A DNA stretch of 64,000 bases from Ophelia neglecta (lineage: Eukaryota), in assembly GCA_965285935.1 (NCBI GenBank), contig OZ260661.1, forward strand, positions 100,006,001 to 100,070,000. The letters run 5' to 3'. Positions 3,001 through 63,000 of the stretch are shown in pieces. Positions within the stretch are counted from its first letter, which is position 1, and the number at the start of each line of letters is the position of its first letter. Made by a program: the position numbers.

Positions 3001-6000
3001 GAGTTGGCCTATTCTAAGGTGAAAGCTATTTTGCTGGTTGGAGGTAATAAACTTGAAGTGGTGGTATACCTCTAGTCCGGAAAGCACTAAGCTTCCTCAC
3101 AATAGGTAACTAATACCCGAGATTTTCACTTTAAAAGAGGAAATGTGTTCCGGGCATTTATAAAATGTGCAGTTCTATCAACTTGGTAAAAATAGGATGA
3201 TATGACTGTGTACAATAAGGTTTTCATTACCAGTTATATTATTGTAAAAATAAGTGCTCGTCATCCTGGTACGGACCATTTCTTATGCATTAACCAATCT
3301 CTGCTACACCTAGTTTTCATAGTAGTCACAAATTGATATTTTATGTGAAGTATGCAGTAATCAATGAAAGGCCTGTGTCTTGTATGCATCGTTTATTTTG
3401 TTCAAATTTGGTGATTCTGTTATTGCTTTCTTCCATGTTAAGACTTGTACGTGGTCAAGATTATTCAAGCACCCCACAGTTCACCTTTTCTTTTGTAAAA
3501 TGCTCATAGGGGGCGGTTATAGGTATCTTACTCCAATGTTTGGTTATAGTGGAACGAGGCAAATACATGCTGCCATAATGAGAAAAATATTTACATTATG
3601 TTCAAGGCATCGACCCATTATACTCCAACATGACATGAGTGGCATGTGCTACTTTCCAAATATGGCGTATGCTAATGAGTGGGTGGAGGGGACGCCGCGG
3701 TGTCAGGTGCACAGCCAATCAGCAACTAGTCTCGTGCGCCTATCAGCGACTAGGAGGAGGTGGGACAATCTTGATAAAGAGGCATATATTTACCAAGGGT
3801 CAAGCTATCCTACCAGTATTTGTGCTTGAACATTTCGGCGAGAGTGGACATCTTTCTCTCTCGCTTTAATACGGCGAATATATACACCAATATATTGTGA
3901 ACTTTGAATCTCGTGAATGTGTACCCTGTTGGGATCGCACCGAAAGCTGGACTCCTGCCTCTAAACGCTGTTTATTGTCCAGGTCTTGCGCAGATCCAGT
4001 GTGAACGTTGTTATTGAGAGGTGGAGAGGACTTGGATATTCACGGAAGTTGAGTCGAGATAGCAGTAAGCCACAGACGACACCATGTTGGCCGCCAAGTC
4101 CCCCTACGACCCCAATGCGAGTGGGGCCTACTCGATGCCCAGCATGACTATGGGGTCCACTTCGATGTCTTCGATGCCCATGAATTCCATGGCATACAGC
4201 AACATGGGGGGCATGGGCTACAATCCTCAGGCAGCCATGTCTCAAATGAGCTCTATGCACGGGACGACAGGCATGAGTCCCGGCATGGGAGGCTCTCCCA
4301 TGGGCGCCATGGGTACGATGATGGGCACCCAGGCCATGAATACGATGGGCGGAATGAATATGGGCATGAACGGCATGGGACAACCGGCGGGCTTGGGCAT
4401 GGGCATGACGGGCGTCAACTGTATGACAGGGATGACCGGCGGGCCCATGTCCCCCGTCTCGCCTGGCATGGGGGCTATGAACAGCATGAACAGCATCAAC
4501 CGCGCTCGGGAGAAGACCTACCGGCGCTCGTACACCCATGCCAAGCCACCCTACTCCTATATCAGCCTGATAACCATGGCTATCCAGAACTCTCCTAGCA
4601 AAATGTGTACCCTTAGTGAGATCTACCAGTTCATTATGGACCTGTTTCCATTCTACAGACAAAATCAACAACGTTGGCAAAACTCCATCAGGCATAGTCT
4701 ATCCTTTAACGACTGCTTTGTCAAAGTGCCTCGTTCTCCGGACAGGCCGGGTAAAGGTGAGGACATATTTAATTCTCATTTATTTCCATTACAATGATTA
4801 GTATCAATACGGTCTTAAACCCGTCTGCTCTAATTTTAAGCCCTAGCATGTATTTATTTTTCAATATCAGGTTTGTCCCAACGTTTTTATTGTAAACATT
4901 GTGTCACGTTCTTTCCACAATATTTGAAAGCCTCTCCATGATCACAGTATAGGCCAGTACAGGCGTACTAGTTGATAGGCGTGCCTCAGAATAACATAGG
5001 TGTCAATTGCAATTTAAAATTTTGGCAAGTATGGCATCTTTCTGCGAAGCACATTTTGTGCTTAAGACGAGTTTCACATCGCCGGCTTCATGTGGCACAA
5101 CCACGAGTAGGCCTACGTGTTATCGGCTTCGGACTATACAAATTAAAGGAAATTAAACAAAAAACCGGTGCCAAGAAATAGTAACATCAGCTAATTGATA
5201 CTCAGTAATTTTCCAATGGGAATTGGTGGCAAATTCCATTTTCTACCTTTAAATTATTCTTTGAATTTCTGTAGACTAAAACAACTATTCTATTGGTTAT
5301 TTTGTAGGATCCTACTGGACCCTTCACCCTGACTCGGGCAATATGTTCGAGAACGGCTGCTACTTGCGACGTCAGAAGCGTTTCAAGTGTCCGAAGAAGG
5401 AGACAATTAGACAGGCGCAGAAGACATCCTCACAGACGGTCACGAGTCCCGGGGGCACTCCCCTCGAGTCTGCCGACTTGAACGGCTCTCATGAAGAAGA
5501 CCCAGACAGTGAGGATGAAGGTGACTATAAGCCACAACACCTGGATCCCCAGGTGAGCCAACAACAGCAGCAGCAGCAACAACAACAGCAACAACAGGGT
5601 GGGCCAGACAGCCATCTGCCTCCCCAGCATCAGGGCCATCCGCAGCACCCTCAGCACCATGGGGGTGTCAACTCCGTCGATACTACCTCGCCCCTCAACC
5701 GCCAGCCTAAGGTGGAACCCGGCGATATGCCAGTCTCTACGGCCCCCGGCATGATGCCCAGCCAGGCCCAGGCGCCCATCTCCAGCGAGGGACATATGCC
5801 TCTCCGGCCCATGACCCACGACGGCAATTTGGCTCACATGCACCATCATCCGGCGATGATGATGAACGGGCAACACTTCAACCACCCATTCTCCATCACG
5901 AACATTATGTCTGCAGAATCGAAACAGCAAATGGACTTGAAAATGTACGAGCAAATGCAGGGGGCCTACCCGACATACGGTCAGATCTCACCAGTGTCAC

Positions 6001-60000: not shown

Positions 60001-63000
60001 GTTAACTAGAAATAAGAGCCCCATTTTACACTTTAGAATCCTGCAGTCATTTGAAGAATGATATTGTTATAGACTGCTGCATGTTGAGATATACATCCTG
60101 TGACAGTTAGCTTCCCTTTCAGGGCGAGGATGTCTGAACCATCATATTCATGAAAAGAAAAGAAAGAAATTTACCTAAGAATTTGATATTTCCTGTACAT
60201 GAAGAAGCTTGTTTACAGGTACAAACTGAAAGATGGTTTTAGAATGCTATTTATCTGAAAAGTTTGATCTTCAATGCAAAAAAACTCAAAGCCATGGTCA
60301 TGGTTTCCTGTATTAGGCAAAGATTCCACCATTGCTACAATCATTTACGCTTTCCAACTAAGGAAGAAACATGTCAGTTATCCCTCAAATATGAACCATA
60401 TACATGATGAGCAAACATACAAGACCGAAAAACCGTTTTTTTTTTCTGTGGAAAATTTGTGCAATCTGGATCATTCTTTTTGTCACAAACAGAAATGTAA
60501 ACTTGAACATGAAAGCGTTCAATGATACACTGTTGCTGTAAGAAGTGATGAACAAAGAACAGACTGCACAGTCAGAAATATGAATCCTGGGCAAATACTT
60601 GCTAATTGTAATTTGTCAGATTGAGGCTGGTCTCAAATGAACAGCTTTGGGTTGAAGAACCTTGAATTCCTATATCACCTCACAGAACTAAAAAACACCA
60701 AATCTTTTTATTCAAATTGGTTTTAAAAATGTGCCACCAAATTTGAACAAGGTGTTTAAAACAGCATGTTCCCCATTCATTATCAGCATAGGCAATATAT
60801 AGCTTGCAGACCACACATGAAGGAGTCAAGGGAAACAGTGACCTTGAAAATGGTCACACAAAAATATAAAGAACGAGTACATGAAATATTAAAAAAAAAA
60901 CAATGCCTAATCCCCTCAAGCCAGTATTCTATTGATTAAACCTAGAAAATTGATGAAAGTCCAACATCACCATCAGATTCACTGTAAATGATAGCTTATA
61001 TGCTCCCAATACTGTTCTAAGCTCTTCCTCAAATACAAAATTAATGAAAGCAAAAAACTGCACACACTCATATTTTCTTCTTTCATTTTGGTTGCTATGG
61101 TAACAAAATAAAACAGAAAATCTCAAAAATGAAATTCTTTGATGCTTATGATTATCTAAAATCGTTAGTCCATGTCGATTTTACAACAGCTTTTCTCCTT
61201 CTGCAGGATTGATTTCACTACACCTGGAGTTGGTAATTTTATAACTTAAGTAGTACAGTTAGCTTAGTTTTAATAAAACAAATTTCCCAGATCTGATTGC
61301 TGCACGCATGAAGAAAAACGAGCCTGCCTGGATCAAAGGGTTTCTTAGTGTAGTTATACATTCAATGTAAGCCAGCAAACCACAGCTCTATACATATCCC
61401 CACACTCTTCCTTTGAAAAAGGTGGGAGAATACAATGGTAAATCCAATATCTGAGGTTTTTTGCATATAAAACAGGCCTATTTTTTAATATTTTATTTTG
61501 ATGAAAAATTCCAAGGTGAACAGTGATTAATAACTTAGCATGCTTCGGAGCCATGGCCACCAAGTCCAGGAGCACATGTTGTAAATGGAGGAAGAACAAA
61601 AGGTAGCATTAGCCAAGCTTTCCACCACCTTGGCGGCCTTAGATTTCGCCCATGGTGGCCCCCAGCACCCAGTCACTCGGTTCTGTGCAAACAGTCATTT
61701 CCATCAGAGACTGTCTCAATGTTCACTTTTCAATGGCAGATGGGTTAGTCATGATCAGACTGACGCAGCTTTTCTCCTTCACACAATATGTCAGGCACCG
61801 AATTTCAGGCCTCAATTTGTGACGCATGCAAACTTAGCCGATTGGCTCCCTGACAAGCGGGTGATTCGTTAGGTTTAGGCATGTAAGTCCTGCCGCATGA
61901 CAATTGCTTTTGAAACATGACTGCGCAAAGCTGGCAGGCTCAATTTTTCAAATGATTGTTCAATTACGAGCACAATTTACTTGGGTGGAACGGTGCAGAA
62001 TGGGATTGGGAATCTGATAAATAGTGAGCCCAAATGTAAATAGTACATATGTCAGGGAGTGTGCTACCGAGACTGGCTGAAAAGTTAGAATATCACAACA
62101 CTAAATGGCCAAATAAATTTCCAAACTGGCAATTATCATAATAACAAGATGAGCAGTATGCATATCTCACAGAACAATGAAGTATCCCTCGTGATTTGAA
62201 TAGTTAACACCTGCATCAGCTTACCAACAAGGAAAACATGCAATATCACTGCACTGGCTTTACTCGTCTATTGAAATTTGAAATATGTTCCAATTTAAAT
62301 AGAAATGCCATGTTTAATTGACTGTTACCTGTAATAAACTCGAAGGGTTTGGAGTTCTTCCTCCAGCTTTCTGGTTTTTGTCAGGGCCATGTCTCTCTCT
62401 TGTTGGGTGGCCAGCAGCTTTGCCTGCAAACATAAAATTGTAATAATTTTTTAAAACAAATATCAATACAATTGCCACTTATACTACTCTTGTTTATGAC
62501 TTATATATCAAGGTAGTCACAGAATTCTTCTAGCTGCATAGTGCTATCTTTTAAGTTAAGATATATTTTAAATCTATTACTTGTCAATTTATCTCTAACA
62601 TGAGCAAGCTATTCAGCAAATGTTTTATTCCTCATAGATAACTGTGTCAAGCATAATTGATCTGCCCATATTTGTAAATATGTATGTACATTGGAATTTA
62701 TTGTGAAAAATCATCACCATTGAATGCACTCCATGGGTAAATCCATAACTCAATATGTAGAAGATAAATCTCTTTATACTCAAACTTTGAACAGGAGTAA
62801 AATAGGTTTGCTTAAGTTGTGAGAGAGTTAACAAGTGAAAATCTTCGGTCAATACAATAATTTACCGATTCAACAAAATTCGACTGTGTTGCAAATACAA
62901 TACAGTGAGCAGTGATTTGCAGAAGCATCATGAAGTGTTTGAGGAAACTGACTAAATCGGCCAACTTTGGGAGACTTGGCTTGCATGCTTAGGAACTTAT

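What the first reader, a model, noticed from the sequence alone, without database searches (positions are those of the whole stretch)
4084..62423. FoxA and MIPOL1 tail-to-tail across a ~48-kb desert: pharyngeal-cluster linkage, possibly in a non-deuterostome
Seen: foxA (+) and three phase-compatible MIPOL1-like exons (-), with no credible coding gene in between. Established: human FOXA1 and MIPOL1 are convergent neighbours on chromosome 14q, within the nkx2.1-nkx2.2/2.8-pax1/9-slc25a21-mipol1-foxA cluster described from deuterostomes. Inference: the FoxA termini ([10 protein letters not shown]..., ...[13 protein letters not shown]) look spiralian-like. If so, this is a bilaterian-age genomic regulatory block with MIPOL1 as bystander, and slc25a21, pax1/9 or nkx2 genes may lie to the right of the window.
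Basis: partly seen in the sequence, partly recalled or inferred. Interest (0 to 1): 0.65.

Follow-up and report, generated by a model that had tools for sequence, protein, structure and literature searches.

The report
FoxA and MIPOL1 neighbours, gene-free gap
The window holds a FoxA gene and the last three exons of a MIPOL1 gene facing each other across about 49.5 kb with no recognisable gene, probably in a spiralian animal, and this gene pairing has already been published for protostomes.

Summary
FoxA lies on the + strand in two exons (4084-4756 and 5308-6086), with Forkhead, Forkhead_N and HNF_C domains. Three phase-compatible exons on the - strand (62423-62329, 59274-59044, 55702-55636) match the C-terminal end of named MIPOL1 proteins. 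The two stop codons are 49.5 kb apart, tail to tail.

In that gap, none of the stop-to-stop ORFs of at least 40 aa passes a Pfam cut-off. There is no tRNA, no Rfam match and no repeat of 40 nt or more.

The taxon guess is supported. Brachiopod Lingula is the closest MIPOL1 relative in all three exons. FoxA exon 1 groups with spiralians in 94 of 100 bootstraps. The species itself stays unidentified. It is not Lingula anatina and not human.

The evolutionary reading is not new. Simakov 2015, Kapli 2021 and Lin 2024 already report mipol1-foxA linkage in protostomes, including six spiralian genomes, and date it to the bilaterian ancestor.

I found no virus-like stretch.

One thing remains unexplained. 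Two short words are strongly over-represented: TAGGCCTA (37 sites against 0.75 expected) and CAGACGAC (16 sites). All but two of these 53 sites lie between the two genes.

All searches were made exon by exon. The joined-protein step was left out.

The parts
4084..4756 (+). FoxA coding exon 1: N-terminal region and most of the forkhead domain. It ends with 1 nt of a split Gly codon.
   Evidence: Sequence read. Pfam Forkhead 1.1e-32 (profile positions 2-74 of 88) and Forkhead_N 1.7e-8. Best solved-structure matches are HNF-3 beta, alpha and gamma at 164-140 bits, ahead of FoxC2 at 115 bits. Residues 1-224 align from residue 1-8 of relatives, so no upstream coding exon is missing.
4757..5307 (+). 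FoxA intron, phase 1, inside the forkhead domain (GT...AG).
   Evidence: Donor GTGAGG at 4757 and acceptor AG at 5306-5307. The forkhead profile match stops at the exon end. The intron holds one TAGGCCTA site at 5108.
5308..6086 (+). FoxA coding exon 2: end of the forkhead domain and the C-terminal region with the HNF3 C-terminal domain. Stop TGA at 6084-6086.
   Evidence: Pfam HNF_C 8.7e-10. 408 FoxA-type proteins at E <= 1e-5 among 1035 candidates. The best is 44% identical over 100% of the query.
6087..55635 (.). Interval of 49,549 nt between the two stop codons, including both 3' UTRs. No recognisable gene or repeat. It holds 36 of the 37 TAGGCCTA sites and 15 of the 16 CAGACGAC sites.
   Evidence: Pfam on all stop-to-stop ORFs of at least 40 aa: none passes a cut-off. 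No tRNA. No Rfam match at gathering score or at E <= 0.1. No repeat of 40 nt or more. Four small tandem arrays in the whole window. Motif counts. Poly(A)-like hexamers at 7064, 7145 and 7239 on the + strand, and at 55501 and 54046 on the - strand.
55636..55702 (-). MIPOL1-like last coding exon: 1 nt, then 21 codons, then stop TAA at 55638-55636.
   Evidence: Acceptor AG at 55704-55703. It matches the C-terminal end of Lingula P0131 (residues 672-693 of 693) at 77% identity over 22 aa, and 81.0% of 21 residues are identical in the alignment.
59044..59274 (-). MIPOL1-like penultimate coding exon: 1 nt, then 76 codons, then 2 nt. Coiled-coil region with a 20-residue stretch identical to echinoderm MIPOL1.
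   Evidence: Acceptor AG at 59276-59275 and donor GTAAGA from 59043. E = 6.7e-11 to Antedon P0001. 60.5% of 76 residues identical to Lingula, and sister to Lingula in 95 of 100 bootstraps. The identical stretch is visible.
62329..62423 (-). MIPOL1-like antepenultimate coding exon: 31 codons, then 2 nt. The rest of the gene lies beyond the right edge of the window.
   Evidence: Acceptor AG at 62425-62424 and donor GT at 62328-62327. 80.6% of 31 residues identical to Lingula. No further exon in 62424-64000, even at tblastn E <= 50 with the Lingula protein.

Best explanation
This is the conserved FoxA-MIPOL1 microsyntenic pair, seen in a spiralian genome. The species is unidentified, and the closest named relative of its MIPOL1 is the brachiopod Lingula anatina. 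FoxA, an endoderm and foregut transcription factor, and the 3' end of MIPOL1, a coiled-coil protein, point at each other across 49.5 kb without a recognisable gene.

The most likely reason for this arrangement is the one already proposed in print for the pair. Cis-regulatory elements of foxA lie in the intergenic DNA and in the introns of the neighbouring mipol1 gene. A break between the two genes would then separate foxA from its enhancers, so MIPOL1 is held in place as a bystander.

Shown here: the identity of both genes, their orientation, the exon structure, the absence of recognisable genes and repeats in the gap, and the spiralian affinity.

Inferred from the literature and not shown here: that the gap and the MIPOL1 introns carry foxA enhancers, and that this is what keeps the genes linked.
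For: FoxA identity:
- Forkhead, Forkhead_N and HNF_C all score above their cut-offs.
- FOXA1/2/3 structures are the best of 35 solved-structure matches.

MIPOL1 identity:
- Exon-by-exon matches.
- 67 of 155 family proteins hit the window, and only on the three exons.
- 64 of 82 profile hits carry a MIPOL1-type name.

Convergent orientation and fitting phases were read.

Empty gap:
- Of 690 ORFs of at least 40 aa in the window, 0 outside FoxA pass a Pfam cut-off.
- No tRNA or Rfam match.
- No repeat of 40 nt or more.

Spiralian affinity.

Literature:
- Simakov 2015 says mipol1 introns harbour regulatory elements for foxA and that the pairing also occurs in protostomes (passages).
- Lin 2024 found the linkage in 6 of 6 spiralian genomes and dates the pair to the bilaterian ancestor (passages).
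- Kapli 2021 lists the pair for various protostomes (passage).
Against: - No conserved non-coding element was shown, because no related genome was on hand. The regulatory role of the gap is therefore untested.
- FoxA exon 2 supports a spiralian-only sister group in only 48 of 100 bootstraps.
- The first search with the middle MIPOL1 exon returned only echinoderm and unnamed proteins.
- Lingula is the only named protostome among the 82 profile hits, so the 'closest to Lingula' result rests on a single spiralian sequence.
- The window has more ORFs of at least 120 aa than simulated: 16 observed, 7 of them at FoxA or the middle MIPOL1 exon, against 3.5 simulated. Old decayed coding sequence or orphan genes in the gap cannot be excluded.
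- Simakov 2015 also notes that microsynteny can persist through a low rate of rearrangement alone.
Confidence: 0.8

Rival explanations
1. The two genes are neighbours only because this genome rearranges slowly. No regulatory constraint ties them together, and the gap is neutral DNA.
For: Simakov 2015 names low rearrangement rates as one cause of conserved microsynteny (passage). No conserved element or enhancer was demonstrated here.
Against: The pair is reported from deuterostomes, from 6 of 6 spiralian genomes and from 'various protostomes'. That is hard to explain by slow rearrangement alone. A 49.5-kb interval free of any repeat of 40 nt or more does not look like freely drifting, transposon-accepting DNA.
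Confidence: 0.15
2. The window comes from a deuterostome (an ambulacrarian) and not a spiralian, so it is simply part of the classic pharyngeal cluster.
For: The single-exon search returned Antedon and Lytechinus as the only named hits. The antepenultimate exon is nearly as close to hemichordates (74-77%) as to Lingula (80.6%).
Against: Lingula is closest in all three exons and is sister to the middle exon in 95 of 100 bootstraps. The four best named FoxA relatives, by summed score over both exons, are spiralians. FoxA exon 1 has a spiralian-only sister group in 94 of 100 bootstraps. No protein of Saccoglossus, Ptychodera or an echinoderm in the database is near-identical to the window's exons.
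Confidence: 0.08
3. The interval is not a desert. It holds lineage-specific protein-coding genes, genes made of short exons, or long non-coding RNAs that profile libraries cannot see.
For: There is an excess of ORFs of at least 120 aa outside the known exons: 9 observed (16 in all, less 7 at FoxA or the middle MIPOL1 exon) against 3.5 simulated for the whole window. Several CpG-rich patches are present. Exons shorter than 40 aa were not scanned.
Against: No ORF of at least 40 aa in the interval passes a Pfam cut-off. No Rfam match. The longest ORF in the interval, 164 aa, is reached in 20 of 100 simulations.
Confidence: 0.2

Closest known systems
The mipol1-foxA microsyntenic pair, one of three bilaterian blocks of the 'pharyngeal gene cluster' (Simakov et al. 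2015; Kapli et al. 2021; Lin et al. 2024)
   Same: The same two genes are direct neighbours with nothing recognisable between them. The taxon is outside the deuterostomes, as those papers already report for protostomes.
   Different: The species is not identified. It appears to be neither a bivalve nor one of the annelids of Lin 2024, since its MIPOL1 is closest to a brachiopod's. The papers' figures and supplements, which may give orientation, distances and the species list, could not be seen.
The full deuterostome pharyngeal cluster (nkx2.1, nkx2.2, msxlx, pax1/9, slc25a21, mipol1, foxA)
   Same: It contains the mipol1-foxA end of the cluster.
   Different: No homeobox, paired-box or mitochondrial-carrier domain is found anywhere in the 64 kb. 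Whether the other genes follow beyond the right edge cannot be seen. [quoted passage not shown]
Genomic regulatory blocks: a developmental target gene plus bystander genes held by long-range enhancers
   Same: A developmental transcription factor sits next to an unrelated gene across a large, gene-free and repeat-free interval.
   Different: The defining arrays of conserved non-coding elements were not tested here.
Lingula anatina protein LOC106156015 (P0131, 693 aa), the closest named MIPOL1 relative
   Same: It is 80.6%, 60.5% and 81.0% identical over the three exons, and it ends at the same residue.
   Different: The identity is far too low for the same species. Only the last 128 or so residues can be compared, because the rest of the gene is outside the window.

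Membership tests
FoxA class of forkhead transcription factors | Forkhead (winged-helix) DNA-binding domain | tested here: met
   PF00250 at 1.1e-32, 112 bits against a cut-off of 27.
FoxA class of forkhead transcription factors | FoxA-specific flanking regions (Forkhead_N and the HNF3 C-terminal domain) | tested here: met
   PF08430 at 35.6 bits (cut-off 22) in exon 1. PF09354 at 39.7 bits (cut-off 25) in exon 2.
FoxA class of forkhead transcription factors | Closer to FoxA than to other Fox classes | tested here: met
   Solved structures: HNF-3 beta, alpha and gamma score 164-140 bits, FoxC2 and FKH-14 score 115, and the others score lower. Named hits are FoxA, HNF-3 or silk gland factor 1.
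MIPOL1 (mirror-image polydactyly gene 1 protein) family | Sequence similarity to named MIPOL1 proteins over the same region, in the same order | tested here: met
   The three exons match consecutive C-terminal segments of family members. 64 of the 82 profile hits are named MIPOL1.
MIPOL1 (mirror-image polydactyly gene 1 protein) family | The two Pfam families that all 82 relatives carry (PF27918, PF27921) | not testable with these tools
   The local Pfam copy lacks these models. It gave 0 families even for the relatives P0001, P0004 and P0005. Their names are unknown to me.
MIPOL1 (mirror-image polydactyly gene 1 protein) family | Complete gene with the N-terminal conserved region | not testable with these tools
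   Only the last three exons are in the window. No further exon lies in 62424-64000.
Pharyngeal gene cluster | mipol1 directly next to foxA | tested here: met
   Nothing recognisable lies between the two stop codons.
Pharyngeal gene cluster | slc25a21, pax1/9, msxlx, nkx2.2 and nkx2.1 following mipol1 in order | not testable with these tools
   These would lie beyond the right edge of the window. No other sequence of this genome was on hand.
Genomic regulatory block | Array of conserved non-coding elements spanning the target gene and the bystander | not testable with these tools
Genomic regulatory block | Large interval without other genes around a developmental regulator | tested here: met
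   A 49,549-nt interval with no Pfam, tRNA or Rfam match and no repeat of 40 nt or more.

The most novel reading that the evidence does not exclude
The two short words are TAGGCCTA (37 sites) and CAGACGAC (16 sites). They fill the FoxA intron and the intergenic interval, and are absent from the MIPOL1 introns and, apart from one CAGACGAC site 11 nt before the ATG, from the FoxA upstream region. On this reading they are not a genome-wide quirk. They would be a locus-specific array of binding sites for an unknown architectural or regulatory factor that marks out the FoxA regulatory domain in this spiralian.
Probability: 0.1. Interest if true: 0.6.

Novelty: already known. Interest (0 to 1): 0.2.

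Why it matters
The FoxA-MIPOL1 pair is part of the argument over whether the 'deuterostome' pharyngeal gene cluster is really older. One more spiralian example, from a lineage whose MIPOL1 is closest to a brachiopod's, agrees with the published view that the pair dates to the bilaterian ancestor. It does not change that view.

The locus could still be useful as a compact case for looking at how a bystander gene is held next to a developmental regulator: 49.5 kb, no repeats, and clear gene ends. The two over-represented short words are the only unexplained feature. They would matter only if a genome-wide count shows they are specific to this locus.

Tried and rejected
- **Six-frame Pfam scan.** The tool did not accept long translations containing stops. 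I scanned all 690 stop-to-stop ORFs of at least 40 aa instead.
- **ESM Atlas.** The middle MIPOL1 exon gave only generic coiled-coil clusters. The 211-aa ORF 57472-58104 (-) gave no usable hit and a low recognition value of 1102.
- **Local Pfam on the MIPOL1 relatives.** It returned nothing, because its copy lacks PF27918 and PF27921.
- **Cluster look-up for names.** It was unavailable and was not repeated. Names came from the profile search.
- **The weak RING-finger match at 39671-39856 (-).** I read it and rejected it, because the peptide lacks the cysteine pattern.
- **Literature on TAGGCCTA.** 283 papers hold the string, and 12 hold it together with 'palindrom' and 'genome'. The listings (15 and 12 rows) show primers and unrelated bacterial or fungal sites. 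Only the listings were seen.
- **Virus-like stretch.** No reverse transcriptase, integrase, capsid, envelope or transposase domain appears among the 690 ORFs. There are no long terminal or inverted repeats. I describe none.
- **More MIPOL1 exons.** None is present, even at tblastn E <= 50.
- **Species identification.** Not possible. The best FoxA exon-2 hit is 44% identical and unnamed. I did not try to trace unnamed records.
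Full report
**The window**

The window is 64,000 bases with no N. GC is about 0.38 and CpG observed/expected is 0.74.

I do not take it for human. The best match to FoxA exon 2 in the large protein database is 44% identical, and vertebrate FoxA proteins are about 47-54% identical to exon 1. The rule on human contigs therefore did not come into play.

Both gene models are spliced, so I searched them exon by exon throughout. The joined-protein step (search, phylogeny or fold of a full-length model) was left out. 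A full-length comparison therefore remains open.

**FoxA**

The + strand has an ATG at 4084 and an open frame to a GT donor at 4757. An AG acceptor lies at 5306-5307, and a second frame runs to TGA at 6084-6086. The intron is in phase 1 and lies inside the forkhead domain.

- Pfam gives Forkhead (1.1e-32, profile positions 2-74 of 88) and Forkhead_N (1.7e-8) in exon 1, and the HNF3 C-terminal domain (8.7e-10) in exon 2. All are above their curated cut-offs.
- Against solved structures, exon 1 matches 35 sequences at E <= 1e-10. HNF-3 beta, alpha and gamma lead with 164-140 bits, ahead of FoxC2 and the other Fox classes at 115 bits or less.
- Exon 1 aligns from residue 1-8 of several relatives, so the coding region is complete at its 5' end.

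**MIPOL1**

On the - strand there are three exons with canonical splice sites:

- 62423-62329: 31 codons, then 2 nt.
- 59274-59044: 1 nt, then 76 codons, then 2 nt, with a GTAAGA donor.
- 55702-55636: 1 nt, then 21 codons, then TAA.

The phases fit at both junctions.

The middle exon alone found 5 proteins at E <= 0.001 among 52 candidates. The best is Antedon mediterranea P0001 at 6.7e-11.

A full HMMER scan with P0001 found 211 representatives at E <= 0.001, of which 41 are at E <= 1e-30.

Of 155 family proteins, 67 hit the window by tblastn at E <= 1e-3. All hits fall on these three exons and nowhere else.

A profile of 34 family members returned 82 proteins at E <= 1e-5, among 7998 scored candidates:

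- 64 of the 82 carry a MIPOL1-type name. They include many vertebrates, Branchiostoma lanceolatum 'MIPOL1', Saccoglossus, Ptychodera, Asterias, Acanthaster, Patiria and Apostichopus.
- All 82 carry the precomputed families PF27918.1 and PF27921.1.

The local Pfam copy lacks those two models, so I cannot name them or test them on the window. No solved structure matches the middle exon.

The rest of the gene must lie beyond 64000. No further exon is seen in 62424-64000, even at E <= 50.

**The gap**

The two stop codons are 49,549 nt apart (6087-55635), and the genes are tail to tail. The first poly(A)-like hexamers are at 7064-7239 for FoxA and at 55501 and 54046 for MIPOL1.

I scanned all 690 stop-to-stop ORFs of at least 40 aa in the window against Pfam: 204 of at least 60 aa and 486 of 40-59 aa.

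- Only the two FoxA ORFs pass a gathering score.
- Six other ORFs give sub-threshold matches at E 0.0015-0.01: DUF4833, SLX1_C, zf-C3HC4, PspA/DUF745 on the MIPOL1 exon, Vitelline_membr and YqhR.
- About 6.9 such matches are expected by chance. The RING-like one lacks the cysteine pattern.

Other scans of the window were also empty:

- No tRNA.
- No Rfam match at gathering score or at E <= 0.1.
- No direct or inverted repeat of 40 nt or more.
- Only four small tandem arrays.

Against a clean desert, the window has 16 ORFs of at least 120 aa, where 100 first-order Markov simulations gave 3.5 on average. Seven of the 16 lie at FoxA or the middle MIPOL1 exon. A 211-aa ORF in a MIPOL1 intron (57472-58104, - strand) is reached in only 1 of 100 simulations, but it has no Pfam match and no Atlas lead. 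Orphan, short-exon or non-coding genes cannot be excluded without transcript data.

**Taxon**

No database protein is near-identical to either gene, so the species is not represented, or not annotated, in the collections searched.

MIPOL1 exons against 18 named orthologues:

| Exon | Identity to Lingula anatina P0131 |
|---|---|
| 62423-62329 | 80.6% of 31 residues |
| 59274-59044 | 60.5% of 76 residues |
| 55702-55636 | 81.0% of 21 residues |

- Lingula is the closest in all three exons.
- The middle exon is sister to Lingula alone in 95 of 100 neighbour-joining bootstraps.

FoxA points the same way, less firmly for exon 2:

- The four best named relatives, by summed score over both exons, are Haliotis, Themiste, Ridgeia and Biomphalaria.
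- Exon 1 has a spiralian-only sister group in 94 of 100 bootstraps.
- Exon 2 has one in only 48 of 100.

Against this reading, Lingula is the only named protostome among the 82 MIPOL1 hits. In the antepenultimate exon, hemichordates are within a few percent of it.

I conclude that the source is a spiralian, possibly near the lophophorates. It is not Lingula anatina itself. The phylum is unresolved.

**What is in print**

- Simakov et al. 2015 (PMC4729200; passages and the Fig. 4 legend seen) describe the cluster. They say that mipol1 introns harbour regulatory elements for foxA. They also state that the pairing of mipol1 with foxA occurs in protostomes, indicating bilaterian ancestry.
- Kapli et al. 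2021 (PMC7978419; passages) list 'mipol1 foxA (various protostomes)'.
- Lin et al. 2024 (PMC11175523; passages) found mipol1 and foxa linked in all 6 spiralian genomes analysed: scallop, two clams, oyster and two annelids. They conclude that the pair was established in the bilaterian ancestor, as one of three separate blocks in protostomes.
- A search for 'mipol1' together with 'microsynten' found only these works (4 records).

The figures and supplements of these papers, which may name further phyla and give orientations, could not be seen.

**Mechanism**

The best-supported explanation is the published one. foxA is the regulated target. Its enhancers lie in the flanking interval and in the mipol1 introns, and mipol1 is kept next to it as a bystander.

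The anatomy seen here fits: a developmental regulator, a large gene-free and repeat-free interval, and an unrelated neighbour. No conserved non-coding element, accessibility or contact could be tested, so this step is inference.

**Virus-like stretch**

My scans found none:

- No reverse transcriptase, integrase, capsid, envelope or transposase domain among the 690 ORFs.
- No terminal repeats.

A fragment too decayed to keep a 40-aa open frame would have escaped.

**Noticed in passing**

The palindrome TAGGCCTA occurs 37 times, against 0.75 expected (100 dinucleotide shuffles, largest count 4).

- Allowing one mismatch, it occurs 109 times against 20.4 expected.
- All 37 exact sites lie between 5108 and 48979: one in the FoxA intron and 36 in the gap.
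- None lies in the 12.4 kb upstream of FoxA or in the MIPOL1 body. The chance of that under uniform placement is 3.3e-4.
- The flanks are unrelated, so these are not copies of a longer repeat.
- Six neighbour gaps are under 50 nt, against 1.48 expected. This was reached in 18 of 10,000 simulations.

A second word, CAGACGAC, occurs 16 times on both strands.

- It is mostly preceded by G and followed by A.
- GCAGACGAC with up to one mismatch occurs 28 times against 4.7 expected.
- One site lies 11 nt before the FoxA ATG.

I cannot tell whether these words are specific to the locus or a property of this genome. That question carries the only novel reading I can offer.

Noticed in passing
window 5108-48979 (37 sites; densest at 8-24 kb): The palindromic 8-mer TAGGCCTA occurs 37 times against 0.75 expected. 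Allowing one mismatch it occurs 109 times against 20.4. The flanks are unrelated, and six neighbour gaps are under 50 nt. One site is in the FoxA intron and 36 are in the intergenic gap. None lies upstream of FoxA or in the MIPOL1 body. No explanation turned up in the paper listings.
   Followed up: partly
window 4073-53340 (16 sites, both strands): The word CAGACGAC, mostly preceded by G and followed by A, occurs 16 times. GCAGACGAC with up to one mismatch occurs 28 times against 4.7 expected. One site lies 11 nt before the FoxA start codon. The flanks are unrelated.
   Followed up: partly
window 1-64000: The window is remarkably poor in repeats. It has no direct or inverted repeat of 40 nt or more, only chance-level matches at 28 nt or more, and four small tandem arrays.
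   Followed up: yes
window 4757-5307: The FoxA coding region is split by a phase-1 intron inside the forkhead domain, after profile position 74 of 88. Whether relatives share this intron could not be checked, because no genomic sequence of relatives was available.
   Followed up: no
window 57472-58104 (-): A 211-aa open frame lies in the intron between the last two MIPOL1 exons, on the same strand. This length is reached in 1 of 100 simulations. It has no Pfam match, and the Atlas gives no usable hit and a low recognition value.
   Followed up: partly
window, whole (10641-11030, 17707-18105, 24681-25172, 32096-32476, 33013-33486, 37343-37744, 39296-39661 and others): There are more ORFs of at least 120 aa than simulated. 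Sixteen were observed, seven of them at FoxA or the middle MIPOL1 exon, against 3.5 simulated. None of the others has a Pfam match. They could reflect uneven base composition or old decayed coding sequence.
   Followed up: partly
window 15594-15616, 28805-28816, 38486-38497, 38545-38560, 38690-38700, 48691-48702, 54532-54543: Seven G or C homopolymer runs of 10-23 nt are present. Three C runs sit within 215 nt in the GC-richest and most GC-skewed patch of the gap.
   Followed up: no
proteins P0230, P0244, P0253, P0260 (unnamed database records): Several unnamed database proteins of 87-110 aa match only the middle MIPOL1 exon, at 52-57% identity. P0244, P0253 and P0260 end where that exon's open frame ends; P0230's match stops about 20 nt short of it. 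They look like single-exon ORF calls from other animals' genomic contigs, which would mean the exon boundary is shared. Their origin was not sought.
   Followed up: no
MIPOL1 family search: Lingula anatina is the only named protostome among the 82 profile hits, although the literature reports mipol1 in molluscs and annelids. Either those proteins are more divergent, or they were not among the 7998 candidates scored.
   Followed up: no
No viral or transposon-type domain was found in 690 ORFs of at least 40 aa, and no terminal repeats were found.
   Followed up: yes
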